A stretch of DNA of 64,000 nucleotides from assembly GCA_963737655.1 (NCBI GenBank), contig CAVTTN010000002.1:6912001-6976000 (forward strand), read 5' to 3'. Shown here piece after piece: positions 11,289 through 40,721 of the stretch. Each line of letters starts with the position of its first letter. Position 1 is the stretch's first letter. The translations under genes were made by a program, and so were the position numbers. Under the pieces are notes generated by a model, which was not told the origin of the DNA, ran no database searches, and saw nothing but the letters and a program-made list of their open reading frames with translations. The stretch is from an uncultured Planctomycetota bacterium. GTDB taxonomy: Bacteria; Planctomycetota; Planctomycetia; Isosphaerales; Isosphaeraceae.

Positions 11289-11362
11289 GCACCCGTAGCT
11301 CAATTGGATAGAGCATCAGTCTTCGGAACTGAGGGTTGGGGGTTCAAGTCCCTCCGGGTGTA
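11289..11362 (+). tRNA. tRNA-Arg (anticodon TCG)
   Basis: Acceptor GCACCCG/CGGGTGT+A, D arm GCTCAATTGGATAGAGC, anticodon arm TCAGT-CTTCGGA-ACTGA, T loop GGTTCAAGTCC. No encoded CCA. Confidence 0.96.
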
Positions 11363-11533: not shown

Positions 11534-12265
11534 TCACGAAGTGCCGACTCCGTACTTCCTGGCCAGTTCCTCGACTTGCTGGTAATCGGTCTCTACGCGC
11601 TCGGCGGCTTTCCGGATCGACGCGTTCATCCGGCTCAAACCGCCGTCGAGCTCCTGGAAGCGGAAGCCGTTTCGGAAGCCTTCGATGAATTCTTCGAGCG
11701 ATCCCTCGGGCAAGGCGCGGAGGCCCTCGCCGAGCCTCTCGCAGGAGTCGAGGTAGCGCGAGAAGGCGTCGCGAAAGTCGGACGGGCAGTCGGAGAGTTC
11801 CAGGGATCGCATTCGGGCGACGTACAGATCGATGGCCCGGGCCTTCACCGCGTATTTCTGCTGATCGACGAGGACCTCCTTCATGCTCCTGGCGGCCTCG
11901 TCGCTCTGCTCGATCACCCGGGCGATGGCGTCCTGGGCGGCCTGGGCGGCCTTCCCCTCTTCGTCGAGGGCGGCCCAGCCGACCCAGGCGATCCCCACCG
12001 CCGCCAGCCCGATCAGGCCGACGGCCATGACTTTTCGCCTCGGGCCCGCCGGCCCGCTCGCCCCCTTTTCCGATCCGGGCTCGGCATCGCCGACCCCGGG
12101 ATTGGTGATGGTTAAGGCGCTGACCCAGATCACCCTGTCGCGCGAGACTTCATGGAACCAGTCGAGTTCGCCTCGGAGGCAGCGGTTTTCCAGATCGACG
12201 CGTTTAAACGGGCCGGTGATCCGGCCGGCGTCGCGGACATACCAGCGATCGGATTTCACTCTCAT
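11534..12265 (-). CDS. GYF_2/DUF4339-like domain single-pass membrane protein
   Basis: N-terminal WYVRDAGRITGPF...GELDWFHEVSRD..W, a TM segment (VMAVGLIGLAAVGIAWVGWAAL) and a helical C-terminal domain. Confidence 0.7.
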   Translation of the reverse strand: MRVKSDRWYVRDAGRITGPFKRVDLENRCLRGELDWFHEVSRDRVIWVSALTITNPGVGDAEPGSEKGASGPAGPRRKVMAVGLIGLAAVGIAWVGWAALDEEGKAAQAAQDAIARVIEQSDEAARSMKEVLVDQQKYAVKARAIDLYVARMRSLELSDCPSDFRDAFSRYLDSCERLGEGLRALPEGSLEEFIEGFRNGFRFQELDGGLSRMNASIRKAAERVETDYQQVEELARKYGVGTS

Positions 12266-12470
12266 AAGAGTCCCTCGATTCGCGGTCGGGGCCCGGTGCG
12301 AACCGCGCCCCGGGCCGACGTCGGGAGGCCCAGGCTCGGCCTCGCAAAGTCGAGTCCTCGCCGAATCCGTGGGTCGGGGTCTCATCGCCGGGGGCCGGAG
12401 ATAGTTTACCGGCCGATCCGAGACGTGGGCAAGGAGCGAAACGGCTGGTCATCCAGTTCGTCGTCCACGT

Positions 12471-12500
12471 TTGCCAATCCGTGGGACTCTCGATTATAGT
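12471..12500 (+). promoter_or_regulatory. Sigma70-like promoter upstream of the TIR-kinase/tubulin operon
   Basis: TTGCCA-18 bp-TATAGT in the divergent intergenic region, about 115 bp before the ATG at 12616. Confidence 0.45.
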
Positions 12501-12615
12501 CGGTCGCGAAGCCCTGATCCGGGGCGTCTCGACGCCGGTCGTCGCGGCCCTCGAACGATCGACGACGAGACGCGACGAGACGGCCCTGCCGACCGGGGCC
12601 GACGGAGGACGGACG

Positions 12616-13847
12616 ATGATCCGCGTGTTCGTCTCGTATCGACGCGAGGACAGCCTCCACCCGACCGGGCGGCTCTACGACCGCCTCTGCGCCCGATTCG
12701 GCACGGCGAACATCTTCAAGGACGTCAATTCGATCCCCCTGGGCCTGGACTTTCGCGAGGTGCTCAGGGCGGGGATCGCCGAGAGCGATCTCCTGCTGGC
12801 GATGATCGGCGATCATTGGCTCGAAGCCGGCAAGGCGCCGGGAACCCGCCGGCTCGACGACCCGAACGACTTCGTCCGCTTCGAGATCGAATCGGCCCTG
12901 GAGCGGGGCGTCCCGGTCGTCCCGGTGCTCGTCGGCTCGGCGCCCATGCCCCAGGAGCACGAACTGCCGGCGGGACTGAAGCCCCTGGCCTTCCGGATGG
13001 GGATCGTGGTCCGCCCCGATCCCGACTTCCACGCCGGGGTGGACCTCTTGATTGCCCGGATCGAGACGGTCGCCTCGGAGCAAGCCGCTCGCCGGTCCCG
13101 GGAGTTCCTCGGCGGGTTCGGTTCGTATCAGGTGCTCAGTCCCCTGGCGGGGGCCTCGATGGGCTCGGCGTTCCTGGCCGAGGATTCGCGGACCGGCCGC
13201 CGGGTCGTCCTGAAGGCCCCCGACCTGGCGGCGAAGGATCGGGCCCGGTTCCTGGAGCGGGCCCGGGCCGCGAAGGGCCTGCGCCATCCCTCGCTCTGCC
13301 CGGTCCTGGACGTGGGGGAGATCGACGGCCACCCCTATCTCGTCATGGAATTGATCCAGGGCAAGAGCCTGGCCCAGACGATCCCGGCCGAGGGGACGCC
13401 GGTCCGCCCCGCCGCGGCCCTGGTCGGTCGGCTGGCCCTGGCGATGAAGGAGGCCCACGAGCGAGGGGTCCTCCACGGCGAGCTGACCGCCGCGAACATC
13501 CGGTTTCGGCCGGTCGGCCAGGGGCGAGACCCCGTGATCGTCGGCCTCGGCCGGGGCGACGACGAGTCCGGGCCGATCGCCGACGTCGTCGGCCTGGGGA
13601 CGGTCCTCCGGCAACTCCTGGAGGGCCGGCCGGCCGGCTCTGAGCCGAGGAACGAGCCGGGCCCCGGGCGGTCGAGCCGGCCCTGGCGGCGATCTGCCGG
13701 AGGGCCACCGACCGGGCCTCGGCGGACCGCTACCTGACCATGAGCGAGTTCGCCTCGGCCCTGGCGGATTACCTGCATTCCCCTCCGGCCCGGCGGATCT
13801 CGGCGGGCGTCTGGGGCCGGGCCTCCGGGATCGAGTTCGAGTCGTAG
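12616..13847 (+). CDS. TIR domain-Ser/Thr pseudokinase fusion (apparent -1 frameshift near 13665)
   Basis: TIR_2 motifs VFVSYRRED, IFKDVNSIPLGLDF, DFVRFEIESAL. Kinase fold VVLKAP, LRHPSLCPVLDVGEIDGHPYLVMELIQG. The kinase C-lobe (LAAICRRATDRASADRYLTMSEFASALADYL) continues in the next frame to TAG at 13845-13847. Confidence 0.85.
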
Positions 13848-13889
13848 CCGCCCGGGTCGTGTGGTCGCGAGAGACCGAGGATCGAGCCG

Positions 13890-15524
13890 ATGCCCAGCCT
13901 CCCCCCGCTCGGATGCCCCTACCCGCGATGCCCCTCGCATCACGGAGTCGTGCCCGAGGCCACCGAGGCTCCCCAGGGGATCCGGCTGTGCTCGGCCTGC
14001 GGGCGGTTGATGGTCGTCTGCCATAACCGGAGCTGCCAGGCCTCCGGCACCTTCAATCGCCCGTTCGTGAAGTTCTGCCGACGATGCGGCGAGCCGGTGA
14101 AGCAAGGCCGGGCCTGGGAGGCCCTGCGGCGGGACGGCTGGGACCTCGTCCCCCAGGGGATCGCCGAGCCGGAGATCGTGGCCGACCTCTCCCGGCTGAT
14201 CCAGACCCATTCGCCGCGATACCTCGTGGCCCAGGAGATGATCCGAGGGATGCTGGCGATCCACCACGCCGGCCAGTCCCTGGCCCTGACCAAGGCGGTC
14301 CCGGGCGACCTGGACGAGGCGATCCTCTGGAGCTGGGCGGAAGACCCGTTCCCCGAATCCCCCTTCGGCGGGCCGTCGCCGCCGAACACGCCGACGCTCT
14401 TGCCCGACGAGCGCCGGCTGATGTTCTCGTGCCCCCAGGGCGTCCTGCTGCTGGACCTGTGGAGCTGCCACGGGATCTCGGCCAAGGACAACGCGGCGAG
14501 AGTCCGCGTCCTCAGGCTCTCGCGACGGTCGCTGGTCGTCCCGCCGATCCCGCTGGACCCGAGCCGGATCGGCCTCCTCAGCCGGGGGCCGGGCGAGTCG
14601 TCCCCCTATCGCTGGACGATCTGGGACATCGCCCGGCCCGAGTCGGAGGATGCCTCGGTCGCCTCCGAGCTGAACTCGGAGGCCGGCGCCTTGCTGCCGA
14701 TCGGCCTGGGCACGCCCTGCCGTCGCGAGGTCGTCGCCGATCGCGCCATCACCCTGACGACCCCGAAGGCGCAATTCGTCTGGAAGATGGCCGACGCGAT
14801 CGAGATGAACGTCGCGGAGGACAAGCTAGTCCGGACCTGGCCCGGCCCCGAGGCCGACCCCGAGGACACCATCGTCCTGGACGACCGGGGGGAGTTCCAG
14901 ACCGCCGCCATCGCCTCGACCGAGGCCATGCTCCTCCACGAGCCGACGGCCGAGATGAAGAGGCGAGGGCTGGACGGGCAATTCTCGTGGTTCTACTGCG
15001 TCCGCAGCGATCGCGCCGCCAGCCTCGAATCGGCCGAGCGCTACGAGTGCTACCAGGTCCCCCTGGACAGCCTCAGATTCAACATCCCCCAGCCGGTCCA
15101 GCTCCCGTCCGGCGCCCGGCCCGTCGGCGCGGCGCCGGACCGCAACGACATCCCGAGGATGATCTTCCACTTCGGCCCGGAGATCTGGTCGGTGGACGAG
15201 GCCAACATGGGGCGGATGTACCAGGGCGGCCTGCCCTCGACCCCGGTCAGCCACCAGTCCGCCGGCCCCCTGATCCTCAGCGTCGGCGAGCAGGACCACC
15301 GGACGCGATTCGTCCAGATCGACTCGTTGCATCACCCGGCCCGACGGACCGAGGCGGTCCTGGGCGGGCGGCTGGTGTCGGACCCCTTGCTTTGGCATCG
15401 ATGGCTCTTTACGATCGAGATCGATGGGAGCGACCGCCTGCTCGCCCGACGACGCATCGTCCAGTTCGGCGCCCCGAACCGCCGGGCCGCCTCACCCGGC
15501 GCTGGAGACCTTGAATCGCCATGA
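13890..15524 (+). CDS. Double-zinc-ribbon protein with a probable C-terminal beta-propeller-like region
   Basis: CPYPRC, CSACG, CHNRSC, FCRRCG at the N-terminus. The remainder is beta-rich with blade-like segments (TPTLLPDERRLMF, LVSDPLLWHRWLFTIE). Confidence 0.7.
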   Translation: MPSLPPLGCPYPRCPSHHGVVPEATEAPQGIRLCSACGRLMVVCHNRSCQASGTFNRPFVKFCRRCGEPVKQGRAWEALRRDGWDLVPQGIAEPEIVADLSRLIQTHSPRYLVAQEMIRGMLAIHHAGQSLALTKAVPGDLDEAILWSWAEDPFPESPFGGPSPPNTPTLLPDERRLMFSCPQGVLLLDLWSCHGISAKDNAARVRVLRLSRRSLVVPPIPLDPSRIGLLSRGPGESSPYRWTIWDIARPESEDASVASELNSEAGALLPIGLGTPCRREVVADRAITLTTPKAQFVWKMADAIEMNVAEDKLVRTWPGPEADPEDTIVLDDRGEFQTAAIASTEAMLLHEPTAEMKRRGLDGQFSWFYCVRSDRAASLESAERYECYQVPLDSLRFNIPQPVQLPSGARPVGAAPDRNDIPRMIFHFGPEIWSVDEANMGRMYQGGLPSTPVSHQSAGPLILSVGEQDHRTRFVQIDSLHHPARRTEAVLGGRLVSDPLLWHRWLFTIEIDGSDRLLARRRIVQFGAPNRRAASPGAGDLESP

Positions 15525-16027
15525 TGCCCGCGCCCCAAGCTGCCGCGTCGCGCCGGTCCGCCGCGCTGGCGCTCGCCCTGGCCCTGGCCATCGCCCTGAT
15601 CGTCCTGGCGGCCTTCCCCGAGACCTCGCTGGCCCAGAACGCGGCGCGTCCCGGCCGCGCCGCGGCCACGGCCAAGGCGGTGGGCTGGGGGCGAGGCGTG
15701 CTGATGTTCCTCGTCTCGGCCCTGGCCTGCGCGTATATCTGGTATCAGGGCGTGTTCCCCTGGTTGCTTCGCAAGGGCGAGCCGAGCTGGCCCCTGGACG
15801 CCTGGAGATGGGCCACGGCCGGCGCGTGGACGACCACCTGCCTCTCGGCGATCCTGCTGGATCGGCCCACTCCGCTGATGACGCGCCACGTCTTCGGCCC
15901 CCTCCTCAATCAGAGCAGCCTGTCGACCCTGTTCTTCATCCCGATCGTCCTGCCGGTGATCCTCTGCCTCGGCCTCCTGGTGATCTGGAACTTCCGTCGC
16001 GACGAGGCGGCGTCCCGGCCCGTCTGA
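15521..16027 (+). CDS. Small multi-pass membrane protein
   Basis: Signal-like N-terminus plus about three hydrophobic segments. ATGA coupling with the upstream gene. Confidence 0.75.
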   Translation: MMPAPQAAASRRSAALALALALAIALIVLAAFPETSLAQNAARPGRAAATAKAVGWGRGVLMFLVSALACAYIWYQGVFPWLLRKGEPSWPLDAWRWATAGAWTTTCLSAILLDRPTPLMTRHVFGPLLNQSSLSTLFFIPIVLPVILCLGLLVIWNFRRDEAASRPV

Positions 16028-16101
16028 GCGGCAGGTCGGGCGACGAGCGGAGCGCCCCTCGCACTCGACCGGCCCCGCAACCCGCATCTTCGGAGCCCCC
16101 C

Positions 16102-19100
16102 ATGACGACGAGCGCGGTCGAATCGCGAATCCACTCCCTCGGCGGGAGCGCCTTCCGGGAAGAGACCCTCACCCGCCGAGTGCCGACGGTCTTCGTCGCG
16201 CTAGGAGGGAGCGGAAAAGACGTGGTAATGCGACTGCGTAAGCGGTTCTTCGATCGATTCCAGACCAAGGACCCCGGGTTCGCCCGCTTCGTCTTCATCG
16301 ATACCGACACCCAGAGCACCACGCCCCTCGAAGAGAAGGATGACTCCTACGCCGAGCTGGCGCCCAACCAGGACGAGCTGGTGGACGTGCCGATCAACCC
16401 GGCGCAGTTCGAGAAGACGTTCCACGACCTCAACGCGAAGGTCAATTGCGAGCATCTCTCCTGGCTGAAGCTGGAGATGGAGAGGATCACGCCCCAGGCC
16501 GTGGCCCACGGGGCCGGGACGTATCGGCCGATGGGCCGCCTGGCCTTCTACCTGAACTACACGGCGATCCGCGCCACGCTCGAATACCAGATCGAGGCGG
16601 CGCTGAGGTTCGCCGCCGAGGACGCGGCGAACGTCGATGACAGCCGGGTCGAGGTGGTGATCCTGATGTCCCTGGCCGGGGGCACCGGCGCCGGGATGTT
16701 CATCGACGTGGCCTACCTCGTCAAGGACATCCTCAACCAGCCCCGGTATCAGACCCTCAGCGGCAAGAACATCACGCTGATCGGCTTCCTCCCGGGCGTC
16801 TTCGAGGACCAGAAGCCGCTGTACGAGAGGCTCCAGCAGAACGCCTTCGCCGCGTTCCTGGAGCTGGAACACTACGGCACCCCTCGGACCGGCGACGAGC
16901 TGTTCCTGGGGGACCTCCGCGACCCCGCCGGCCAGTCCAACCAGAACTGGACCGGCTTCCGCAAGAACTGGGGCGACGGCCAGGTCGAATTCATCCGAGG
17001 GCCCGGGTGGGACACCTGCTTCCTGATCGACAACCGCAACGACCTCGACCCCAACGCCCCCCTGACGCGCCGCGAAGTCTTCCAGATGGCCGCGGATTAC
17101 CTGTTCCTCGACTTCGAGAACCACGCCTTCGCGGTGGCCAAGCGATCGGCCCGGTGCAACCTCGTCCAGTTCAAGGACAAGGTCAAGGAGACCTGGGTCC
17201 GCCGTGGGGACAACGGCCGGCCGGCGGCGCCGTCGCTGATCGAGGGGGACTCGGTCTACGCCACCCAGAACGGCTGCCGGTTCAGCACGTTCGGCGTGGC
17301 CGAGATCTTCTTCGACGTGGAGCGGCTGTACTACGTCGCCTCGTATCGCCTGGCCGCCCGCCTGCTCCGCCAGCGATGGCTGGGCTCCGCCGAGCGTTTC
17401 ACCCAGGGCGTCTACACCAACTGGGTGAAGGAAGACCTGCTCCAGCCCCGCGCCCGGCCCGACGAGGAGACCCCGCCGTCGTTCCTGCCCGAGAGCATGA
17501 TCCGGAGGATGCTCACCGGCGCCAACGGCTGCCACCTCGACGAGCTGACGCGGGACTTCGCCTCGCTGGCCGAGGTCCGCCCGTCCGAGGGCCGGCAGCG
17601 GCTGACCCAGGCCCTCCGCAACCACGCCGTGCAGCTCCAGGAAGGCCAGGGCCGGCGGGGCGACCGCGGCCCGGCCCTCCAGACCCTCCAGGAAAGCCTG
17701 ACGAAGCTCGGGGGCGACCCCGGCACCCTGGGCCCCCTCCGCAAGAGGCTTCGAGAGCTCGCCGCCTCCCGCTGCGCCGGCGTCGGCGTGAACGCCACGC
17801 TCCAGCTCCTGGACAAGTACCGCGACGCCATCGGCAAGGTCCGCGACCGCGCCCGCGAGCAGACCAGGCCCGCCTCGCCCGACGACGGCCGGTTGCTCGC
17901 CCGCCTGATCGAGGCCGAATCGGTCCCCTGGCCGGTCCGCGACAAGGCGATCGCCATCGAGTTCGCCCGGGCCCGCGACCAGGCCGCCGAGGCGGTGAAG
18001 CTCCGCTACGAGAAGCACGCCGCGGCCCGGCTCGACGAGCTGCTCCAGGGCATCAGCCTCTACATCGGCACGGCCGCGCAAACGCCCGACCCGGGCCTGG
18101 CCCGCCACGGGACGCTCTACGGCCACTACACCCGGGGCCGGACCCTGTTCCTCGCCCTGGCCACCCGGCTGGAGGACCGCTTCGAGGTGTCCTTCCTGGA
18201 CGGCCAGCCCCAGCCCGACGGCCGGGGCGATCGCGGCCAGCCGTCCCGGGCCTCGCGACGGCACTCCCTGTCCCCCAACTGGGACCGCGCGACCTACGAC
18301 ATGAGGATCGTCGAGGCCCTGGTCGGCCACCCGGAGCTTCACCTCGCCGAGAGGACCGCCGAGGACGAGGAGAACTTCGACTGGGACAAGCTCACCGAGC
18401 TGGTCCTCCAGAAGCTCCGGGCCCTGGGCCGGGGCCAGATGGACGGCGTCCGCAACATCGACGACCTGATCAAGTACTACATCACCAACGGCCTGGACGA
18501 CGCCTCCGGCATCGTCCAGGCGGCCGAGAAGCTCGCCGAGGCGTGCCGGATCGTCCTCCACGGCGCCAAGGACGCCACCGGGCAGCACGCCGGGGGCTTC
18601 CAGCTCCGCGACGAGGGCGGCGGCAACGCGATCGACCTGCTCGTCCGCCAGGACAACTGGGAGGAGCTCCTGGACAAGATGGTCAAGGCCAGCATGCCGT
18701 ACATCCAGACCACCGATCCGACCCGGATCTCCAGCGACTTCTCCCCGGCCTACAGCAACCTGTACAGCCAGAAGCAGGGGGACGCCGCCCCCAGCGCCAA
18801 CAACGCCAACCGCGTCTACCAGAAGGTCCGCAACCTCGTCGCCCAGCGGGCGACGAACATCCCCAACCCGTCGGCCCGGCTGCTCAACCCGCCCCTGGCC
18901 TCGGAGAACTCGACGATCATCCTCGTCCGCGAGATGACCGGCTTCCCCCTCCAGTTCTACGCCCACCTCGGCCAGATGAAGGCGGCCTACGACAAGACGA
19001 TCTCGCGGATCGGCAACCTCGGCAACGACGTGGCCCACATCAACTTCAACGAAGCGGGCGAGACGCTGCCGGACATCACCCTGCTGGACGCGAACACCTA

Positions 19101-19680
19101 CGCCCAGATCCGCGACCACGTCTCGTTCGTGATCCGGGCCATCATCATCGGCGTGATCAACTGGCGGGATCACGTCCTGAGGGTCGGCGTGCCCGACATC
19201 CACGGCGGCAAGCCCTCGGAGATGCGGCTGGGGACCCGGCTCCATCGCGCCATCAAGTACGCCTGCGACACCGACCGCGTCCGCCGCTACCTCGTCCAGG
19301 CCGGCAACGATTGGGTCACCAACGCCTCGACCGGCGACTGGGCGTGCCTGTATGCCTCGGCCCGGATGACCTGGGAGCAGCTCAAGCCGGAGAGGGACGT
19401 GACCAAGGGCGAGGTCTCCTCGCCCCTGAGGAACTGCTACGAGAGCATCCTCTCGCTGGCGACCAACCGCCTGAATGCCACCGAGGAAGGCAAGCGCTGG
19501 TTCTCCGCGCTCCGCCCCGATCCGTTCGACCCGCCCCGGCCCGACGACCCGCCCGACCTGGACGTCCACGGCACCCTGGCGCAGAAGCTGATCCGCCGAT
19601 GCCTCCGCCGGCTCAACCCCGAGGTGCCGATCTACCAGATCTTCCCGGAGAAGCTCGGCGACCTCGCGCCGCCCGCCTGA
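16102..19680 (+). CDS. Tubulin/FtsZ-superfamily GTPase (Tubulin_2/FtsZl1-like) with a long helical C-terminal region, ~1192 aa
   Basis: VFVALGGSGKDV, FVFIDTD, HGAGTYRPMGRLAF, signature SLAGGTGAGMFIDVAY, NAFAAFLELEHY, WDTCFLID. Strong GC3 codon bias. Confidence 0.92.
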   Translation: MTTSAVESRIHSLGGSAFREETLTRRVPTVFVALGGSGKDVVMRLRKRFFDRFQTKDPGFARFVFIDTDTQSTTPLEEKDDSYAELAPNQDELVDVPINPAQFEKTFHDLNAKVNCEHLSWLKLEMERITPQAVAHGAGTYRPMGRLAFYLNYTAIRATLEYQIEAALRFAAEDAANVDDSRVEVVILMSLAGGTGAGMFIDVAYLVKDILNQPRYQTLSGKNITLIGFLPGVFEDQKPLYERLQQNAFAAFLELEHYGTPRTGDELFLGDLRDPAGQSNQNWTGFRKNWGDGQVEFIRGPGWDTCFLIDNRNDLDPNAPLTRREVFQMAADYLFLDFENHAFAVAKRSARCNLVQFKDKVKETWVRRGDNGRPAAPSLIEGDSVYATQNGCRFSTFGVAEIFFDVERLYYVASYRLAARLLRQRWLGSAERFTQGVYTNWVKEDLLQPRARPDEETPPSFLPESMIRRMLTGANGCHLDELTRDFASLAEVRPSEGRQRLTQALRNHAVQLQEGQGRRGDRGPALQTLQESLTKLGGDPGTLGPLRKRLRELAASRCAGVGVNATLQLLDKYRDAIGKVRDRAREQTRPASPDDGRLLARLIEAESVPWPVRDKAIAIEFARARDQAAEAVKLRYEKHAAARLDELLQGISLYIGTAAQTPDPGLARHGTLYGHYTRGRTLFLALATRLEDRFEVSFLDGQPQPDGRGDRGQPSRASRRHSLSPNWDRATYDMRIVEALVGHPELHLAERTAEDEENFDWDKLTELVLQKLRALGRGQMDGVRNIDDLIKYYITNGLDDASGIVQAAEKLAEACRIVLHGAKDATGQHAGGFQLRDEGGGNAIDLLVRQDNWEELLDKMVKASMPYIQTTDPTRISSDFSPAYSNLYSQKQGDAAPSANNANRVYQKVRNLVAQRATNIPNPSARLLNPPLASENSTIILVREMTGFPLQFYAHLGQMKAAYDKTISRIGNLGNDVAHINFNEAGETLPDITLLDANTYAQIRDHVSFVIRAIIIGVINWRDHVLRVGVPDIHGGKPSEMRLGTRLHRAIKYACDTDRVRRYLVQAGNDWVTNASTGDWACLYASARMTWEQLKPERDVTKGEVSSPLRNCYESILSLATNRLNATEEGKRWFSALRPDPFDPPRPDDPPDLDVHGTLAQKLIRRCLRRLNPEVPIYQIFPEKLGDLAPPA

Positions 19681-19731
19681 TCGGACCCGGCCCGTCGCGA
19701 CGCCCCCCCTCCGACCGCGAGGATCGAGCCC

Positions 19732-23031: not shown

Positions 23032-23067
23032 GGCCGGAGGCCCGTCGCCTCGATGCGGAGGAGAGCC

Positions 23068-24273: not shown

Positions 24274-24296
24274 ACCGACCCGGGCCGGCCGAATCG

Positions 24297-27578: not shown

Positions 27579-27674
27579 GGCGTTCGCCTCGTCGGTTCGG
27601 GGCTGGCATGAACATTCTTCGCAGGGCCGGCCCGGGCTAGCCCTGCGAGGTACGAAGAAACCCAGCCCGGATGC

Positions 27675-30284: not shown

Positions 30285-30583
30285 GGGTGCCGGACCTCCT
30301 ACCCCGCCCGTCAACAACGGCGGCGGGGCGCATCGTCCCGGATCGCCCGGACCCTCCCGAGCGGGGGCCCGTGGCTCGGCCGAGACATCTCGATCCGATC
30401 TTAGAGGCTCTCCGACCCCGAAGCAAGTGTGCACGGGGCGATCGACGGAGGCCCCGAGGCCGGGGCCTCCTGTCCGGGCGGGGTCGTTGCCGGTAGGATG
30501 ATCCGGCCGTCGGCGAACGGCCCCGCCCCGGCCCGAGGCGTCGGGGGCGAGGCCGCTGGCCGCGAGGCGGAAGGAGCGTTCCG

Positions 30584-31843
30584 GTGGCCGCGGCGTACAA
30601 GGGGGTCGACCTGACCCATCCGCTCTGGCTCCTGGCCGAGCCCGCGCGATCGAAGGGAGACCTCGTGCCCTCGACCGGCTCGTCGCCGGGCAAGTGGCCC
30701 ACGACCCCGATTTTCAAGGCCGACCGCGACTTCTGGACCCGGGCCCTGGACGCCCTGACCATCCCCGAGCCGCCCGCCGAGCCGTTCCCCTCGACGCCGA
30801 TCGGCGAGACCATCAAGGAGCTGGTGGCCGGCGGCGGCGGCAGGTTCGCCGAGGCCGTTTTCAACAATCAGGACTTCCCCAATCTCTGGGTCGCGCTGGC
30901 CGTCCCCTATCGGACCCCCCGGCTGATCCTCAAGGACCTGCACCATCTCTTCGGCTCCCGGATTTTGAACCTGGGGATCAAGAAGGAGAAGCTCTCCGTC
31001 GTCGAGGCGCCGGTGGCCCTGGCGACCGAGTTCGCCGCCCAGGAGCAGGAGCAGGGATGGCTCGACGAGCCGACGCCCCTGGTCCTCCTGACCGGCGAGC
31101 CGCCGATGCGCGAGCTGACCGCCGCGACGGTTCGGAGGGCCGAGAAGGCCCTGAGGATCGAGGTGACGGCGCACGCCGTGATCGATCCGGCCGACCCGTC
31201 CGGTTCGCTCTCCCGGTTCGCCGAGGCCCTCCCGGCCGATCGCGCCTCGCGATTGGTCCACCCGGGGATGACCGAGGCAGCCGGCCAGGTGGCCGCCCTC
31301 CTGGGCGATCGGGTCGGGCCGGAGCTCGACCTCCAGGCCCATGCCGTGGCCGTTGGCGCCGTCCGCTACGGGCTGCTTTTGGAGAAGCAACCCTCGTTGA
31401 ACAAGCCGATCAGCCAGGTCGAAGTGAAGCGGATCGCACCGTGGGCGATCGGCGTCCTCGGGACCAATCGCTCCGGGGACTTCTGGTGCTGGAGGCGGCT
31501 GATCGAGCGGGGGGCGGCCATCTCCGCCGAGCCGGCGTTGCTCCCGATCCTGGCCCGGCGATCGACCATCGAACCGCTGGTCCTGGCCGAATGCGACCGG
31601 CCCGATCACGCCGAACGCCTCTGGATCGCCCGGAAGGACACGCTTTCCCCGCCGGATGAGGCCCGGCGCCGGGACTGGGCCTCCGCCGGCCTGCGATGGC
31701 ACGACGTGGACGCCCGGGTCGAGATCCCCTCGTCGCCCGCCTTCCAGTGGAGGCATTCGTTCCTCGACCGAAGTCGATGGAATCCCCGATGCGAATGCGT
31801 CTCGTGGAAGGTCGTGGCGGCCGACTCGGACGCCGATCCGTGA
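30584..31843 (+). CDS. Degenerate Hsp70-like protein (probably inactive)
   Basis: Collinear Hsp70-like segments VALAVPY, VVEAPVALA, VLLTG, AVAVGAVRYG, VKRIAPWAIGV, RLIERGAAI. The phosphate-1 and phosphate-2 loops are absent. AAGGAG lies upstream of the GTG. Confidence 0.6.
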   Translation: MAAAYKGVDLTHPLWLLAEPARSKGDLVPSTGSSPGKWPTTPIFKADRDFWTRALDALTIPEPPAEPFPSTPIGETIKELVAGGGGRFAEAVFNNQDFPNLWVALAVPYRTPRLILKDLHHLFGSRILNLGIKKEKLSVVEAPVALATEFAAQEQEQGWLDEPTPLVLLTGEPPMRELTAATVRRAEKALRIEVTAHAVIDPADPSGSLSRFAEALPADRASRLVHPGMTEAAGQVAALLGDRVGPELDLQAHAVAVGAVRYGLLLEKQPSLNKPISQVEVKRIAPWAIGVLGTNRSGDFWCWRRLIERGAAISAEPALLPILARRSTIEPLVLAECDRPDHAERLWIARKDTLSPPDEARRRDWASAGLRWHDVDARVEIPSSPAFQWRHSFLDRSRWNPRCECVSWKVVAADSDADP

Positions 31844-31945
31844 TCGAATTCGCTGGATTCGTCGCCCGGGGCGCGTTAGAAGGGGATCCTCTCGCCGGCC
31901 CGGTCCTCGGCCGGGCGGTGACGTGACCCGGAACGAGGCAGTGCG

Positions 31946-32590
31946 ATGGCCGCGAGCGGGCGTCCGCCGGTTTCGGGGTTCGCCGCCCCTCCCCGGGCCT
32001 TCACGATCTGGCCGGGCCTCGCCGCCTCGGCGGTCGTCGCGGCGGGCCTGATCGCCCTGGAGTTCCTCCCCTCCGCGCCTCGCCTGCTGATCCACATGGG
32101 CTCCGGAGCGATGGCGCTGGCCCATGCGATGGCGGCCTTCGCCCTGGTCACCCTGATCGGGGAGGCGATGGTCCTCTCGCTCTGGGAGAATTCGCTCGCC
32201 GAACTCCGCGAACAACTGGAGGAGAGGCGGGGGCGGACCCGGCTCTTCTTCGAGACCGAGGACCCCGCCGAGCCGTCCCCGGACGAGATCGCCGGGGCCG
32301 GCCGGGTGTTCGATCGAGGCCGCCGTTCCCTGCTCCGGCTCTGCACGGTGCCGGCCTACCTCGGCCCGATGATCGGGTTCGTCCGGTCGGTCCGGGCCGC
32401 CGGATTCTCCACCCTGGAGCAGGGGCTTCCCCTCTTCGTCTCGCTGGTCGAGGCGGGGTTGGTGGTGATGCTGGGCCTGGGGGTCTCCCATTCGGGACGG
32501 GCCGTCCGCCTCGGCTGGCAAGCCCTGATGACCGGGCAGGACCAGGCCGCCGCCTTCGCCGGGCCCCGAGGACCGGAGCGACCCCGATGA
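31946..32590 (+). CDS. Multi-pass membrane protein with a weak MotA/TolQ/ExbB-like C-terminal helical hairpin
   Basis: Two N-terminal TMs, a cytoplasmic linker, then CTVPAYLGPMIGFV...GLPLFVSLVEAGLVVMLGL. Confidence 0.55.
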   Translation: MAASGRPPVSGFAAPPRAFTIWPGLAASAVVAAGLIALEFLPSAPRLLIHMGSGAMALAHAMAAFALVTLIGEAMVLSLWENSLAELREQLEERRGRTRLFFETEDPAEPSPDEIAGAGRVFDRGRRSLLRLCTVPAYLGPMIGFVRSVRAAGFSTLEQGLPLFVSLVEAGLVVMLGLGVSHSGRAVRLGWQALMTGQDQAAAFAGPRGPERPR

Positions 32591-34470
32591 TCGCCGAGAG
32601 CCGAGGGCTGGTCCTCTGGGCGGGGTACGCCCTCGCCCTCCTCGCCGCCTTCTTCGCCACGGCCGCGTCACGATCTCGCCCCAACACGCCGACGACCACG
32701 CCCCCGCCCCCCGCGCCCTCCACCGAGACGACGGCCCCGACGCCCGAGCCGGCCCCGGTCGTCCCCTCGCCCGAGTCTCCCCGGGTCCCGTCCCTGACCG
32801 CGACCTCGGAGACGACCGCCGATGGCCGGGGCCTGCTCGTCCGCTTCGCCCTCGACGCCCCGGCGCCTCGCGACCTGGAGATCCCCTTCACCCTGGAGAC
32901 CGGCCCGGCCCGGCCCGACCGGGAGTTCCGGGCCTCCTCGAAGTCCCCGGTGAGGATCGCCCGGGGGGATCGCGAAGCCGTCCTCTCGCTGACGGCGATC
33001 CCCCCCGATCGGCCGGCTCCCGGGGCCTCGAGGCGCCGGACGACCGAGGTCCGGCTGGACCTTGCCGCACCGACTTCGGGCGGCTACTCGCTGGCCGAGG
33101 ACTCGGCCCGATCCTGGCGGCTGCCGATCTCCATCGACGAGCCCATCCCGACCTACTCGCTCCGCAAGATCATGCCGACCAGCTCGGCCTTCCTCCAGGC
33201 CGACGCCCGGAAGGGCGAGACGATCGACATCGCCTTCGAGATCGACCGGCCCCCGGTCGATCAGGCGGTCTCGATCCCGTTCCAACTGCTCGGGACGGCG
33301 ATCGGGGCGAACGGCCCGGGCCGGGCGGACTTCGAGATCGTCGATCCGCCTCGCGGCGGGCGTCTGGAATTCGATCCCGGGGGCGGCGGGACGGCCCATC
33401 TGAAGCTCCGCCGCCTGCCCGGAGACCGAGGGCTGGGAGACCGGACGATCCGGGTCGAGGTCTTGCCCGAACCGAGCGGCCGGGTGGTCCTGGGTCCGGG
33501 CGTGGATCGCTCGATCCCGATCCTCGTGCCCGATCCCCGTCCCACGTTCGTTCGATGGCAGGTGACGACGGCCGAGGCCCCGGGTGCGGAGGGCCCGTTG
33601 TCCCTCCTGGTGACCGTGACGATGGCCCCGCCGAGCAGCCAGCAGGTGGATTTTCGGTTCGAGGTCGGCGCCGGCCCGGCGTCTCCGAGGAAACCGTGGG
33701 TGATCCCGGTCCCGCCGTCGCCCGACCCCTGGTCCGAACGCGAGCGAACGGCGGTCGGGCGGATCCAGGCCGACCCGCTTCGCCGGGTGACGATCCGGGC
33801 CGGGAAGCCGCCGGAATTCGAGAAGACGGTCCGGCTCTCTGCCGACGCGGCCAACCCCGTCGCCTCGGGGCCGATCGAGACGACGTTCCCGCTGCCTTGC
33901 GCAAGCCTCGCGACACTCGGGGGGCGGGCCCTGATGGTCCTGGTCCTCACCCACGGCGTCGGCGAGGCCGAATTCGACGCGATCGCCGCCCTCCAGGAGG
34001 GCCCGGAGGGGCGCGAATCGCTCGTCAACGGCACCGTCTTCGTGCTCGACGCCACCGACTCGCTCGTCTCGTTCGACCGCGAGACGGTCGGTTCGCTCAA
34101 GAAGTTCAAACCGGCCAAGCTCAAGTTTGTCCTCACCGGCGACTCCCGGACCGTGCTCGGAGCGCTCTCCGGCCACCTCGCGCCGGGGGCCTCCGGGAAG
34201 TCGGTCAAGGCGATCCTCCTCCGGGACCTCGGTTCGGCGGATGCTTCGGAGATCCAGGAGGGGTTTCGAAACGGCCTGTCCGGGCCGGACTGGACGATCT
34301 TCTGGATCGACCGGGCCGCCGATCCGGCCCTGGAGACGACGCTCGGGAAGGCCCTCGCGGGCCGCCGACCGCCCAATCCCGCGACCGGGGATTCTCCCCC
34401 GGGCGGCCCGACCCTGAAGGTCCTCCGGGGAGAGATCCGCGGTCCATTGTCCGAGTTCCTGAGAAAATGA
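32587..34470 (+). CDS. N-terminally anchored extracytoplasmic protein with Calx-beta-like beta-sandwich repeats
   Basis: N-terminal TM, Pro/Thr linker, then repeats VRFALDAPAPRDLEIPFTLETGPA..DREF..VRIARGDREAVLSL and IAFEIDRPPVDQAVSIPFQLLGTA..ADF..RLEFDPG. ATGA coupling with the upstream gene. Confidence 0.7.
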   Translation: MIAESRGLVLWAGYALALLAAFFATAASRSRPNTPTTTPPPPAPSTETTAPTPEPAPVVPSPESPRVPSLTATSETTADGRGLLVRFALDAPAPRDLEIPFTLETGPARPDREFRASSKSPVRIARGDREAVLSLTAIPPDRPAPGASRRRTTEVRLDLAAPTSGGYSLAEDSARSWRLPISIDEPIPTYSLRKIMPTSSAFLQADARKGETIDIAFEIDRPPVDQAVSIPFQLLGTAIGANGPGRADFEIVDPPRGGRLEFDPGGGGTAHLKLRRLPGDRGLGDRTIRVEVLPEPSGRVVLGPGVDRSIPILVPDPRPTFVRWQVTTAEAPGAEGPLSLLVTVTMAPPSSQQVDFRFEVGAGPASPRKPWVIPVPPSPDPWSERERTAVGRIQADPLRRVTIRAGKPPEFEKTVRLSADAANPVASGPIETTFPLPCASLATLGGRALMVLVLTHGVGEAEFDAIAALQEGPEGRESLVNGTVFVLDATDSLVSFDRETVGSLKKFKPAKLKFVLTGDSRTVLGALSGHLAPGASGKSVKAILLRDLGSADASEIQEGFRNGLSGPDWTIFWIDRAADPALETTLGKALAGRRPPNPATGDSPPGGPTLKVLRGEIRGPLSEFLRK

Positions 34471-34564
34471 TCCGACGAGGGCCTCGATCGGGCGCGATCG
34501 GGCACCATAGGATATGTTTGCGAGGATTCCCATGACCGCCGATTCGCTCCCCCGAGGGGGACTC

Positions 34565-35742: not shown

Positions 35743-35767
35743 TTCCTATCGTCGAAAGAGGCCTCTC

Positions 35768-36970
35768 ATGATCCGCTTCGGTATGCTCCGTCCGGCCGCT
35801 CGGGGCCTGGGCCTCGCCATAGCCCTCGTGATCTCCGGCGCCTCCCCGTCCGGGGCGGCCGACCCGGCCCGCTACGGCGGGATCGAGGTCGGGTCCAAGG
35901 GGATCAAGGCGGTGGTCGTCGAGGTCGATCCCGCCTCCGGGGCCGTCAAGACCCTGATGGAAGGGAACACCAACACGTCCCTGGCCCAGGACGTGAACAA
36001 GTCCGGGGTCTTCGCCGCCGACGCGATCGAGGAGACCGCCGAGGCCGTCGGCAAGTTCGCCTCGCGAATCAAGGACGAATTCCACGTCCCGACCGACCGG
36101 ATCGCCCTGATCGGCAGCAGCGGATTGCCCAAAGCGACCAACCGCGACGCGATGGCCCAGGCCGTGGCATCGGCCGCGGGGCTGCCCGCGATGACGATCC
36201 TCTCGCCCGATCAGGAGGTCCTCTACTCGATCAAGGGACTCTTCGAGGCCCAGGCGGACCGCGACAAGGCGCTCCTGGTCGATATCGGCAGCGGCAACAC
36301 CAAGGGCGGCTTCCTCCAGGGGCCGGGCGTCGTGAGGTTCGAGGTCCCCCTGGGCAGCGTCACGTTCGAGAATCGCGCCTCGGCCGAGGCCGCCAAGGAC
36401 ATGAAGGAGTTCGCCGAGACCGCCGCGAAGCTCCGGGACGCGGAGCTCGTCCCGACGCTCCGCAAGCAGGTCGCCGACCATCCCGAGCTGGCCCGGAGGA
36501 GCGAGGTCGTCCTCACCGGGGGCGCGGCCTACGCGATGGCCACGCTGCTGAAGCCCGAGCAGATCCAGGCGGAGACCGTCCTGCTGACCGCCCAGGACAT
36601 CGCCCGGTACGCCGAGCTCGTCCACAAGCCCAAGATCGAGGCCGCCGGCCCCCCGCCCGGGCCGGGCACCCCGGCCGAGAAGGAGGTCCGCAAGGTCCTG
36701 GACACCTTCTCTTCCAAGAACCTGATCGCCGGGTCGGAGATCCTCTCCGCCCAGGTCACGGCGCTCCAGCTCGAAGGCAAGACCCTCCGGTTCGACCGCC
36801 GGGGGCTGATGGCCCTGATCCGAGGCAAGGTCCTGGAGCAGGTCGAGGCGGACCGCAAGTCCTCGGTCAAGGGAGAGGATCCCAGGCCGCCGACCCCGAC
36901 CAATGACCCCGGAACCCTGCCGACCCTGCCCGCCCCCTCGAAGTCGCTGCCCGGGACCTCCGTGAAGTGA
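35768..36970 (+). CDS. Exported Ppx/GppA-like ASKHA-fold protein, paralogue 2
   Basis: Signal peptide, then YGGIEVGSKGIK, LIGSSGL, DQEVLY, LLVDIGSGNTKGG, PLGSV and VVLTGGAAY. Confidence 0.85.
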   Translation: MIRFGMLRPAARGLGLAIALVISGASPSGAADPARYGGIEVGSKGIKAVVVEVDPASGAVKTLMEGNTNTSLAQDVNKSGVFAADAIEETAEAVGKFASRIKDEFHVPTDRIALIGSSGLPKATNRDAMAQAVASAAGLPAMTILSPDQEVLYSIKGLFEAQADRDKALLVDIGSGNTKGGFLQGPGVVRFEVPLGSVTFENRASAEAAKDMKEFAETAAKLRDAELVPTLRKQVADHPELARRSEVVLTGGAAYAMATLLKPEQIQAETVLLTAQDIARYAELVHKPKIEAAGPPPGPGTPAEKEVRKVLDTFSSKNLIAGSEILSAQVTALQLEGKTLRFDRRGLMALIRGKVLEQVEADRKSSVKGEDPRPPTPTNDPGTLPTLPAPSKSLPGTSVK

Positions 36971-36996
36971 CCCGGCCCGTGGGCGAGGTCCGGGCC

Positions 36997-38322
36997 TCAG
37001 GCGCGGGCCTCGCCCTTGGTGGTCGTCGCCTCGATCACCTCGTCCATCGCCACCTCGTCCTCCGGGACTTCGAGCACGGGAGGCTTGAACCGGCGGAACC
37101 CGACCCTGGCCAGCGATTCGATGATCGTCGTGTGGATCAGGTAGGGCACCGAGCGATAGATCAGGGGGGACCAGAGGATCGAGAGGACCAGGAACCCCCA
37201 CCAGATCCCCGTGGCCAGCAGCAGGACCATCGACAGCCAGTCCTCGGTGCGGATCGACGAGGAGATCCTCTCCAGCTCCGGGCCGATCGCCGGTCCGCCG
37301 GTCGCCGCCGACGCGATGAGCCCGGGCAGGGTCGCCACGGTCCTCCGGGCGGCCCCGGTGGGCAGGTCGGCCGTGGCCGTCGCGATCAAGGGCCCGTAGT
37401 GGAGCAGGCCGCAGAAGCACCGGGAGAGGAGGCCGGCTCGGCGCGTCTTCCTCGGGTCGGCATCGACGTGGACGACCGACAGGCCCACCGCGAGGTTCCC
37501 CGGCGAGACGAAGGCCCGGAGCGAGAAGACCACGCACCACGCCAGGAGCATCCGTCCCGGGTTGGAGAGCTCGGGGAACCGGCTCACCAGGAGGCTCGCG
37601 ACGATCGCCGAGACGATCAGATCCAGGACCATCGCCAGCACCCGGAGGCTCAGGGGCGCCGCCGCCGCCCGCATCACCCGGCGGTTCAGGTCGCGGACCC
37701 ACGACGATCGACCGTCCAGGGTCCTCCTCGTTTTCTCGAGCAACTCTCCGTAAGATTGCTTGGATAAAGCCATCTGGTCTTCGTGATTCCGCTTCTCGGT
37801 CTCGAGCCGCTTCTCCGCGGCCCGCTTCACGTTCTGCAATTCGGATTCCAGCTTCTTGAGCTTCCTCACCAGGGCCTCGGAATCCGGCGCCGGCTCGGTC
37901 GGTCGCGCCTTGAGCCTCGCGATCTCCAGCTCCAGCTCCTGGATGCGGGTCATCGTGCCGTTGTAGAGATCCAGGTGTTTCTTGCTCGCGTCCTGGGCCG
38001 TCTTCAAGCTTGCCTGGAGCGTCTGGTTCGTCTCCCCGAGTTGCGAGAGCGCCTTGCGATCGGTGGCGAGGTCCTCTTCGAGGCCCCGGACCCCGTCCTT
38101 CAGGGCGGCCTCGCTCTTTCGGAGGTCTTCGAGCCGGAGGGTCAGTTCGGCGCGGGTCTTCTCGAGCGCCGCGACGTCCCGACGGAGGGCCTCGACGACC
38201 TTCGAGTCCACCTGCCCGCGATAGGTCTCGAAATCGAGGATGAATTGCTCGGTCAGGTCGAGCGCCTTGCTCTCCTCGACCCTGCCGTTGGTCTCGGTGG
38301 AGCGGGATTCATCGGTGATCAT
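36997..38322 (-). CDS. Coiled-coil plus RDD-domain membrane protein
   Basis: Long heptad-rich N-terminus, then AAPLSLRVLAMVLDLIV and SPGNLAVGLSVV...LLSR (RDD pattern) with TM helices. Confidence 0.75.
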   Translation of the reverse strand: MITDESRSTETNGRVEESKALDLTEQFILDFETYRGQVDSKVVEALRRDVAALEKTRAELTLRLEDLRKSEAALKDGVRGLEEDLATDRKALSQLGETNQTLQASLKTAQDASKKHLDLYNGTMTRIQELELEIARLKARPTEPAPDSEALVRKLKKLESELQNVKRAAEKRLETEKRNHEDQMALSKQSYGELLEKTRRTLDGRSSWVRDLNRRVMRAAAAPLSLRVLAMVLDLIVSAIVASLLVSRFPELSNPGRMLLAWCVVFSLRAFVSPGNLAVGLSVVHVDADPRKTRRAGLLSRCFCGLLHYGPLIATATADLPTGAARRTVATLPGLIASAATGGPAIGPELERISSSIRTEDWLSMVLLLATGIWWGFLVLSILWSPLIYRSVPYLIHTTIIESLARVGFRRFKPPVLEVPEDEVAMDEVIEATTTKGEARA

Positions 38323-40661: not shown

Positions 40662-40721
40662 GGAAGCTTCCCCCTCGCGCCCGGCAACCCGATCGCCCCC
40701 CCTCGGGCGGCGCACCCCGGG

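What the first reader, a model, noticed from the sequence alone, without database searches (positions are those of the whole stretch)
11534..38322. Candidate uncharacterised multi-component system: tubulin-like GTPase, Hsp70/GrpE pair, TIR-pseudokinase, vWA and membrane modules, exported ASKHA enzymes
Seen: about 15 tightly packed genes directly after tRNA-Arg, in three blocks (12616-24273 +, 24297-30284 -, 30584-36970 +), with ATGA couplings and none of them housekeeping. Established: FtsZl1/Tubulin_2 GTPases occur in operons with vWA proteins and Ser/Thr kinases and were proposed to act in membrane remodelling (Makarova and Koonin 2010); TIR domains act as NADases or signal generators in bacterial immunity. 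Inference: this variant adds a Zn-ribbon-Hsp70 with its own GrpE-like factor, a second dead Hsp70, a MotA/ExbB-like pair and two exported actin-fold phosphohydrolases. That suggests a transmembrane sensing and cytoskeletal machine, either a conflict/defence system or a membrane-remodelling/uptake apparatus. I do not recognise this combination from any named system.
Basis: partly seen in the sequence, partly recalled or inferred. Interest (0 to 1): 0.85.

Follow-up and report, generated by a model that had tools for sequence, protein, structure and literature searches.

The report
Tubulin-like GTPase with private Hsp70 machinery
A rare, mobile planctomycete gene cluster joins a bacterial tubulin relative to its own set of Hsp70-type ATPases, exported surface proteins and swappable accessory genes; the parts were predicted separately before, and its function, probably defence at the cell envelope, is untested.

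Summary
The tubulin-like FtsZl1 gene and an Hsp70-like gene lie together in 11 planctomycete loci, directly adjacent in 10. A Zn-ribbon protein, a small membrane protein and an exported vWA protein usually travel with them. An extended set adds a dead Hsp70, a third Hsp70 with a true GrpE, and a membrane TPR protein; here the last three lie about 150 kb away. The modelled main Hsp70 has an intact ATP site, no lid, and N-terminal beta-sandwiches, one matching an ASH/PapD-like domain. The TIR-pseudokinase, GYF, MotA-like and Ppx-like genes are swappable accessories; the Ppx-like, GYF and TIR parts also sit beside DO-GTPase/GAP1-N2 genes, and the MotA-like/Ppx-like block beside a dynamin. Not supported: frequent ATGA couplings (2 of 14 junctions) and a working MotA/ExbB motor; the in-window GrpE is unproven. 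The locus belongs to the FtsZl1-vWA operons and resembles GAP1-N2 conflict systems but lacks their defining GTPase and GAP1. Best reading (0.5): an envelope-spanning, nucleotide-gated conflict system. This scan noted similar operons in other genomes before. New variant of a known kind; interest 0.6.

The parts
11289..11362 (+). tRNA-Arg(TCG); flank, an insertion hotspot
   Evidence: rimO-tRNA-Arg is kept in 3 of 4 relatives fetched and followed by different DNA in each, integrase- or IS-like in two; no repeated tRNA 3' end in the genome
11534..12265 (-). GYF-like domain + one TM helix + helical domain; accessory
   Evidence: GYF_2 weak, E 0.043; 38% orthologue in G034 beside a GYF-trypsin gene; TM at 119-137 of the long ORF
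12616..13847 (+). TIR domain (putative catalytic Glu kept) fused to a pseudokinase; accessory; frameshift near 13660 is probably an assembly error
   Evidence: TIR_2 38 bits, kinase hit; catalytic-loop and DFG positions degenerate (motifs recalled); database copy P0181 reads through; TIR 45% identical to a TIR-GYF fusion beside a DO-GTPase in G036
13890..15524 (+). N-terminal zinc ribbons + beta-rich domain, probably a propeller; core
   Evidence: alignment A2; 70 clusters at E<=1e-30 among 1.84 billion representatives; propeller is a lead only: Atlas PQQ_2 rows at 0.77, PQQ_2 E 8e-6 in 1 of 55 homologues scanned
15521..16027 (+). small membrane protein (signal-like helix + 2-3 TM); core, sits between the Zn-ribbon gene and the tubulin gene
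   Evidence: ATGA overlap; hydrophobic segments; leave-one-out profile E 4.7e-5
16102..19680 (+). FtsZl1 / Tubulin_2 GTPase, 1192 aa; core
   Evidence: Pfam 177 bits; only copy in the genome; GGxG, DTD, GAG and SLAGGTG motifs conserved in 6 of 6 aligned
19732..23031 (+). HspA: Cys-rich N-terminus, three beta-sandwiches (third ASH/PapD-like), Hsp70 ATPase domain, SBD-beta remnant, no lid; core
   Evidence: AF2 pLDDT 77.5; BiP Z 19.0, rmsd 6.1, 473 aligned; CEP192 ASH/PapD-like domain Z 10.2, rmsd 2.5, 109 aligned; phosphate-2 loop in 9 of 9 orthologues
23053..24273 (+). helical protein with a GrpE-like C-terminal tip; identity unproven
   Evidence: follows HspA in G000, G034, G322, L040; profile match to GrpE-like family only 2.6%; no Pfam hit
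24297..27578 (-). exported vWA protein, MIDAS intact, long C-terminal region; core
   Evidence: VWA hits; DxSxS, T and DG aligned across 5 orthologues, leave-one-out E 3e-48; signal peptide by inspection
27675..30284 (-). exported protein with a C-terminal TM anchor and a short acidic, proline-rich cytoplasmic tail; extended set
   Evidence: TM segments; 31% orthologue in G034; positional, weakly similar genes in G171, G201, L040 (leave-one-out E 7e-6)
30584..31843 (+). HspC: compact Hsp70-fold protein without phosphate loops (predicted dead ATPase); extended set
   Evidence: AF2 pLDDT 55.8; Foldseek DnaK E 1.3e-6; BiP Z 12.3, rmsd 4.5, 292 aligned; alignment lacks DxGGG
31946..32590 (+). 3-4 TM protein with faint MotA/ExbB likeness; accessory
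   Evidence: no MotA_ExbB hit among the genome's 6 matches
32587..34470 (+). N-terminal TM anchor + exported repeats (Calx-beta-like by eye, unconfirmed); accessory
   Evidence: ATGA overlap; family A12; no Pfam or significant PDB hit; no Asp in the TM helix
34514..35742 (+). exported Ppx/GppA-like (ASKHA) protein A, split by a frameshift in this assembly; accessory
   Evidence: two frames match one 370-aa G034 protein; whole in G051 and G032; whether the break is real is open
35768..36970 (+). exported Ppx/GppA-like protein B, catalytic Glu and DxGxGN kept; accessory
   Evidence: Pfam 55.5 bits; PDB exopolyphosphatase E 5.7e-10; E150, D172, G174, G176, N177 invariant in 8 of 8
36997..38322 (-). 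coiled coil + multi-TM domain (RDD-like by recalled motif, no Pfam hit); accessory
   Evidence: 40% orthologue in the same context in G034

Best explanation
An envelope-spanning, nucleotide-gated conflict (surveillance) system built on FtsZl1. Shown here by sequence or model: exported vWA and TM-anchored proteins, a small membrane protein, a tubulin-family GTPase with an intact GTP loop, two lidless Hsp70 ATPases with intact motifs (HspA in the window, HspB 150 kb away), one dead Hsp70 (HspC), one true and one doubtful GrpE, and a membrane TPR/coiled-coil protein; they are inherited together. Inferred: the vWA/TM pair binds a foreign or damage signal outside the inner membrane; the membrane proteins pass it in; FtsZl1 then assembles into a GTP-dependent scaffold at the membrane. 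The private Hsp70 set holds that assembly shut or takes it apart: HspA is aimed by its Zn-ribbon and ASH/PapD-like domains in place of a J protein, GrpE-like factors exchange nucleotide, and HspC acts as a non-catalytic partner. This sets a threshold. Output comes from swappable cassettes: here a TIR-pseudokinase (NAD-cleaving or signalling), a GYF-TM adaptor and two exported phosphohydrolases that could remove or make a nucleotide or polyphosphate signal outside the cell.
For: Co-inheritance: tubulin and HspA together in 11 loci, adjacent in 10, overlapping by 4 nt in G171 and G322; their trees share all three splits that both resolve (9 rows, HspA tree mostly open). Block shuffling between G000 and G034 with all genes but the TIR-kinase kept. 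Patchy spread: close tubulin in 3 of 121 family genomes and 0 of 3 of the same genus; HspA in 5 of 401 class genomes. Sits at a hypervariable tRNA site; cut off after 24 residues of HspA in G030; second part lies near an integrase and IS copies. Accessories shared with predicted conflict systems: Ppx-like + TIR-GYF beside a DO-GTPase in G036; Ppx-like + trypsin/GYF beside GAP1-N2 in G026. KAP NTPase beside the G171 locus and NACHT-FGE beside the G318 locus. Kaur et al. 2020 read the same themes as conflict components.
Against: No experiment on any FtsZl1 system was found, and the conflict reading of GAP1-N2 systems is itself computational. The defining DO-GTPase and GAP1 are missing from the locus. 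No PADLOC system matches. The only classic effector, TIR, is in 1 of 11 loci. Base composition is ordinary (GC 0.694 against 0.687; 32% of 127 genome windows deviate more) and no integrase or att repeat is in the window, so recent transfer is not shown. Makarova and Koonin could not find the T6-H7 filament elements in FtsZl1, so polymer formation is an assumption.
Confidence: 0.5

Rival explanations
1. A membrane-remodelling or surface-assembly machine with no role in conflict: FtsZl1 shapes or organises membrane, the vWA protein is an adhesin, and the Hsp70 set folds, assembles and recycles the structure (the Makarova and Koonin reading).
For: At least 8 of the 15 window genes encode exported or membrane proteins. 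MIDAS intact. ASH/PapD-like domain in HspA; ASH domains are tied to microtubule and trafficking processes in eukaryotes (PMC4094338, passages). In G032 a dynamin-family GTPase, not tubulin, stands before an Hsp70-like gene and the same MotA-like/Ppx-like block.
Against: Very patchy, mobile and sometimes truncated; accessory exchange with DO-GTPase/GAP1-N2 loci and a TIR domain.
Confidence: 0.27
2. A contact-dependent export or attack apparatus: the GTPase and Hsp70 set drive delivery or display of cargo to neighbouring cells, and the exported enzymes are cargo or helpers.
For: In G032 the related Hsp70-like/MotA-like/Ppx-like block lies between WXG100 and FtsK-type ATPase genes; GYF-trypsin genes in G034 and G026.
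Against: No WXG100, FtsK, toxin or immunity gene in the window; none seen in the other tubulin loci scanned.
Confidence: 0.1
3. A patchwork: unrelated cassettes gathered at a tRNA hotspot, with only the tubulin-HspA block forming a unit.
For: True in part: the Ppx-like pair stands without the other genes in G070 and at one G032 site; the TIR-kinase is unique to this locus; the blocks face different ways.
Against: G034 has the same genes, reshuffled, at a site away from rimO; G020 has the Zn-ribbon gene beside the MotA-like pair; vWA, HspC and the TM-anchored gene recur with tubulin in other families.
Confidence: 0.1

Closest known systems
FtsZl1 (Pfam Tubulin_2)-vWA operons; Makarova and Koonin 2010, PMC2875224 (text parts 1-2 of 5, supplement 5 parts 1-2 of 4 and supplement 6 read)
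   Same: About 1200-aa FtsZl1 with the GTP loop; vWA protein with intact MIDAS, exported; a kinase-fold gene; many membrane proteins. The supplement lists single cases of a neighbouring Hsp70, GrpE or MotA/TolQ/ExbB gene.
   Different: No P-loop GTPase and no OmpA-family gene in the locus. Three Hsp70-fold proteins and two GrpE-like ones form a conserved set that the parts read do not describe. The planctomycete FtsZl1 of that paper are kinase fusions or have few neighbours; such kinase fusions are only 28% identical to this one.
GAP1-N2 DO-GTPase conflict systems; Kaur, Burroughs, Iyer, Aravind 2020, PMC7159879 (passages and sections 26, 27, 29 read; figures and source data not seen)
   Same: Tubulin + vWA theme; Hsp70 + GrpE + second Hsp70 theme; planctomycete GYF-TM and GYF-trypsin genes; membrane-proximal layout; patchy and mobile.
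   Different: No DO-GTPase, GAP1 or recognised FNIII protein in the locus. The paper calls the tubulin and Hsp70 themes non-overlapping and places them in (or mainly in) firmicutes and actinobacteria; here both are in one planctomycete system, and no DnaJ domain was hit.
Atypical Hsp70s of eukaryotes (Ssz1, Hsp110/Sse1) and BiP/DnaK
   Same: HspA and HspC models match these folds best; use of a non-catalytic Hsp70 as a partner is known for Ssz1 and Hsp110 (recalled).
   Different: HspA has no lid and carries about 440 N-terminal residues of Zn-ribbon and beta-sandwich domains; HspC is much reduced.
MotA/MotB, ExbB/ExbD and ZorA/ZorB ion-driven stators
   Same: A 3-4 TM gene coupled by ATGA to a single-TM gene; a short P-x-I-G stretch aligns with ExbB/MotA TM2.
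   Different: No Pfam hit, weak profile support, no Asp in the partner helix, no OmpA-like wall-binding domain.
Ppx/GppA exopolyphosphatases
   Same: ASKHA domain, catalytic Glu and phosphate-2 motif.
   Different: N-terminal signal-like peptides, tandem paralogues, no C-terminal HD domain; substrate unknown.

Membership tests
FtsZl1-vWA operons | N-terminal FtsZ-like domain with GGGTG(S/T)G-type loop | tested here: met
   Tubulin_2 177 bits against cut-off 27; SLAGGTG(A/S)G in the alignment
FtsZl1-vWA operons | central coiled coil and helical C-terminal domain | not tested
   length fits (1192 aa); no coiled-coil prediction or model was made; no PDB sequence match
FtsZl1-vWA operons | linked vWA protein with intact MIDAS | tested here: met
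FtsZl1-vWA operons | frequent partners: protein kinase, diverged P-loop GTPase, OmpA-like protein | tested here: inconclusive
   only a pseudokinase; no GTPase or OmpA hit in the window; the paper gives these as frequent, not obligatory
GAP1-N2 DO-GTPase systems | DO-GTPase gene in the neighbourhood | tested here: not met
   none in the window; the genome's one DO-GTPase2 match is 1.35 Mb away; none over cut-off in G171, G201, G318, G322
GAP1-N2 DO-GTPase systems | GAP1 protein | tested here: not met
   GAP1-N2: 0 of 1 own genome (88% complete), 0 of 4 among G171, G201, G318, G322 (92-100% complete); in G034 present but 160 kb away; GAP1-M likewise
GAP1-N2 DO-GTPase systems | FNIII-repeat protein | tested here: inconclusive
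   no FNIII Pfam hit, but unassigned exported regions remain unmodelled
GAP1-N2 DO-GTPase systems | accessory themes: tubulin+vWA; Hsp70+GrpE+second Hsp70; GYF-TM/trypsin | tested here: met
   these are variable, not defining, components
Hsp70 (HspA, 19732-23031) | Hsp70 nucleotide-binding fold with phosphate-1, catalytic Lys/Glu and phosphate-2 residues | tested here: met
   ATPase activity itself not testable
Hsp70 (HspA, 19732-23031) | helical lid after SBD-beta | tested here: not met
   model ends in beta strands at about residue 1085
GrpE | GrpE domain in 23053-24273 | tested here: inconclusive
   no Pfam hit; 2.6% profile match covering the C-terminal tip
GrpE | GrpE domain in the second-site gene (G000:C2:6768763-6769941) | tested here: met
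   45.4 bits against cut-off 25.8; L037 orthologue 47.5 bits
MotA/ExbB-MotB/ExbD stators | MotA_ExbB domain in 31946-32590 | tested here: inconclusive
   no Pfam hit; hhalign 81.5% over 25 columns, then 13.6%
MotA/ExbB-MotB/ExbD stators | conserved Asp in the partner TM helix and a wall-binding or ExbD domain (recalled) | tested here: not met
   no Asp in the helix in G000, G034, G051; no OmpA or ExbD hit
Ppx/GppA | ASKHA domain with catalytic Glu | tested here: met
Known anti-phage systems (PADLOC 2.0) | full gene set of any listed system | tested here: not met
   13 of 16 ORFs have no hit; the rest are kinase, TIR or coiled-coil domain hits

The most novel reading that the evidence does not exclude
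A bacterial tubulin-family polymer with its own dedicated Hsp70 assembly and disassembly machine. HspA would dock on FtsZl1 through ASH/PapD-like domains, the fold that eukaryotic centrosome and cilium proteins (CEP192, Hydin, ASPM) use around microtubules; it would need no J protein and would be gated across the membrane by a vWA receptor. The same Hsp70/membrane chassis would accept either a tubulin or a dynamin as its GTPase.
Probability: 0.2. Interest if true: 0.88.

Novelty: new variant of a known kind. Interest (0 to 1): 0.6.

Why it matters
No experimental study of FtsZl1, predicted in 2010, turned up in the searches made here. This variant gives a defined, co-inherited parts list without the usual DO-GTPase, so it tests directly whether FtsZl1 itself is the switch, whether it polymerises, and whether Hsp70 ATPases control it. 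If the ASH-like domains bind the tubulin relative, the pairing of that fold with tubulin would have a bacterial counterpart. The exchange of accessory cassettes among tubulin, dynamin and DO-GTPase loci in one family points to a wider modular network at the planctomycete envelope.

Tried and rejected
Complex prediction of the HspA ATPase domain with two copies of the C-terminal part of 23053-24273: no verdict (score 0.25, mark 0.32), not used as evidence either way. Sequencing runs: none was listed, so no read or expression test. Plasmid collection: no match to HspA. PDB sequence searches with the tubulin and p627 profiles: nothing significant; Calx-beta repeats in 32587-34470 remain a by-eye guess. 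ESM Atlas for 31946-32590 and 13890-15524: best scores under 0.9, unnamed clusters. Homologue search for 31946-32590 returned only a copy of itself; that for the GrpE-like family only G322-type proteins with no Pfam domain. Cluster look-up for taxon names gave none. The 1418-aa ORF from 15424 was rejected in favour of a start at 16102, because its first part overlaps the real 168-aa gene and relatives align from residue 4 of the shorter form. Three of the 7 metagenome loci (L039, L041, L043) were dropped as weak generic Hsp70 matches and 2 (L038, L042) as fragments at contig ends (L039 and L041 inspected). G497 was dropped from the 11 loci: its tubulin ends the contig and no HspA is held. Five family genomes with 28% matches were set aside as the kinase-fused FtsZl1 type. 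An integrative element with att repeats was looked for and not found. The two N-terminal beta-sandwiches of HspA were not searched alone, so their fold is barely tested. The presence table uses profiles that contain many of the scored sequences; independent support comes and the leave-one-out tests.

Full report
Observation. A codon model trained on this genome picks 16 ORFs (15 genes) between tRNA-Arg(TCG) and a histidine kinase gene. Gaps inside blocks are -4 to 102 nt, but only 2 of 14 junctions are ATGA overlaps. Pfam gives Tubulin_2 (177 bits), TIR_2, a kinase fold, vWA and Ppx-GppA, and nothing above cut-off for the other 12 of 16 ORFs. NCBIfam and PADLOC add only domain-level hits below any system match. 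The host is a planctomycete by its named relatives.

Assembly errors. The TIR-kinase frame breaks near 13660; a separately assembled database copy reads through and maps to 12760-13665 and 13659-13844 in two frames, so this break is probably an error. The first Ppx-like gene is split near 35040-35130 and is whole in G034, G051 and G032. The other assembly also lists the 221-aa second half, and it shares the HspB break, so those two breaks stay open.

Co-occurrence. The tubulin has close relatives in 2 of 120 other family genomes (G030, G034) and none in 3 of the same genus. The HspA profile hits 4 of 400 other class genomes, the tubulin profile 4 of 400 other phylum genomes, and 2 of 7 metagenome loci are near full length. 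That gives 11 loci with both genes: G000, G030, G034, G171, G201, G318, G322, L037, L040, G487, G511. In 10 HspA directly follows the tubulin, with a 4-nt overlap in G171 and G322; L040 has HspA upstream. In G030 only the first 24 residues of HspA remain. The Zn-ribbon and small TM genes are in 8 of 11, the vWA family in 6, HspC in 7 (profiles include many scored rows; several loci are cut by contig ends). G487 has a weak Zn-ribbon match, a small TM gene and another vWA-motif protein in the same order. G034 holds every window gene except the TIR-kinase, with blocks reshuffled. Trees of tubulin and HspA (9 rows; G030 and G318 left out) agree on the three splits both resolve; the HspA tree is mostly open and has long branches.

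The system is larger than the window. In G034, G171 and G201 the locus also has a membrane TPR/coiled-coil gene, a GrpE gene and a more canonical lidless Hsp70 (HspB); L037 has the GrpE and HspB at its cut end. In this genome those genes lie at C2:6768330-6774747, about 150 kb away, near an integrase and IS copies. That GrpE passes Pfam's cut-off (45.4 bits). The in-window GrpE candidate does not; it matches the true family at 2.6% only, over its C-terminal tip.

Structures. The HspA model (pLDDT 77.5) shows three beta-sandwiches, an Hsp70 ATPase domain, an SBD-beta remnant and no lid. It matches BiP at Z 19.0 (rmsd 6.1, 473 aligned); residues 307-449 match the ASH/PapD-like domain 7 of CEP192 at Z 10.2 (rmsd 2.5, 109 aligned), and 171-448 a chain of the sperm central apparatus at Z 10.3 with a poor rmsd of 15.3. 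The tool notes that Z of 7-8 is common for unrelated models, and Ig-like sandwiches are widespread, so this is a fold match and not proof of descent or of tubulin binding. Phosphate-1, Lys527 and phosphate-2 residues are invariant in 8 of 8 aligned, and the Glu after D630 in 7 of 8. No DnaJ domain was hit in the proteins scanned.

Accessories. The Ppx-like gene occurs in 7 of 120 other family genomes, keeping the catalytic Glu. In G036 it follows a DO-GTPase and a TIR-GYF fusion whose TIR is 45% identical to the one here. In G026 it follows GAP1-N2 and flanks GYF/trypsin pieces. In G032 the MotA-like, p627-like and Ppx-like genes follow a dynamin-family GTPase and an Hsp70-like gene, between WXG100 and FtsK genes. 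In G020 the MotA-like pair faces away from the Zn-ribbon gene as in G034. So block 3 is a cassette linked to, but not confined to, the tubulin system. A working stator is not supported (no Asp in the partner helix, motif recalled).

Mobility. rimO-tRNA-Arg is kept in G081, G082 and G030 and is followed by different DNA in each; no tRNA was found after rimO in G034, whose copy of the system is on another contig. No att repeat or integrase is in the window and composition is ordinary. The site is a hotspot; the time of arrival is unknown.

Comparison with print. Makarova and Koonin 2010 (PMC2875224; text parts 1-2, supplement 5 parts 1-2, supplement 6) define FtsZl1-vWA operons, predict membrane remodelling, and list isolated Hsp70, GrpE and MotA-type neighbours. 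Kaur et al. 2020 (PMC7159879; passages, sections 26, 27, 29) describe GAP1-N2 systems with separate tubulin and Hsp70/GrpE themes and planctomycete GYF genes. The defining DO-GTPase and GAP1 are absent from this locus, and GAP1-N2 was not found in G000, G171, G201, G318 or G322. Schou et al. 2014 (PMC4094338; passages) link ASH domains to centrosomes, microtubule organisation and bacterial PapD. Six searches found no paper on this combination; other listed papers were seen as listings only, and subscription journals are not covered. Eight earlier notes of this scan describe related tubulin-Hsp70-GrpE-vWA operons in other genomes; none matched this tubulin by sequence. They are unchecked and were used as leads.

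Verdict. A real, co-inherited FtsZl1-vWA system with a private three-Hsp70 module and exchangeable cassettes. It is a member of the FtsZl1 operons, works like the accessory arms of GAP1-N2 systems, and is not a member of them. Conflict role 0.5, membrane remodelling 0.27, export or attack 0.1, patchwork 0.1. New variant of a known kind; interest 0.6.

Noticed in passing
G000:C2:6768330-6774747 (L032:13330-19747), outside the window: Second half of the system: coiled-coil gene, Zn-ribbon GrpE, lidless Hsp70 (frameshifted near its end) and TM-TPR gene, near an integron-type integrase, a recombinase and two IS copies.
   Followed up: yes
L099:9589-20000 and L089:1-18818 (G032:C33): WXG100 and FtsK-type genes enclose a dynamin-family GTPase, an Hsp70-like gene, GrpE-like repeats, the MotA-like pair, a vWA gene and the Ppx-like pair: a sister system with dynamin in place of tubulin.
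   Followed up: partly
L094:3941-12898 (G036) and L095/L100 (G026), L096 (G025): Exported Ppx-like enzymes, TIR-GYF and GYF-trypsin genes beside DO-GTPase or GAP1-N2 genes; in G026 one Ppx-like domain is fused to a long helical protein.
   Followed up: partly
L034:9987-12308 (G000:C2:5571987-5574308): A 773-aa DO-GTPase2 protein with no GAP1 found in the genome.
   Followed up: no
L026:4472-8029, L029:12866-16423: Kinase-fused FtsZl1 beside an FHA gene in one genus of the family (5 of 14 genomes matched), the type noted in 2010.
   Followed up: partly
window 38590-43464: Bacteriophytochrome histidine kinase (PAS-GAF-PHY), response regulator and hybrid GAF kinase directly after the cluster.
   Followed up: no
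window 944-7478: UvrD-helicase and PD-(D/E)XK nuclease pair (AddAB-like) upstream of bacA, pgsA and rimO; the nuclease-bacA-pgsA-rimO order is kept in relatives.
   Followed up: no
window 56687-59808 and 53889-57029: A long minus-strand ORF overlaps a better-scoring plus-strand ORF; 44092-45357 encodes a type II/IV secretion ATPase.
   Followed up: no
L054:9395-11443 and L052:9987-12593: A KAP-family NTPase flanks the G171 locus and a NACHT-FGE protein lies near the G318 locus.
   Followed up: no
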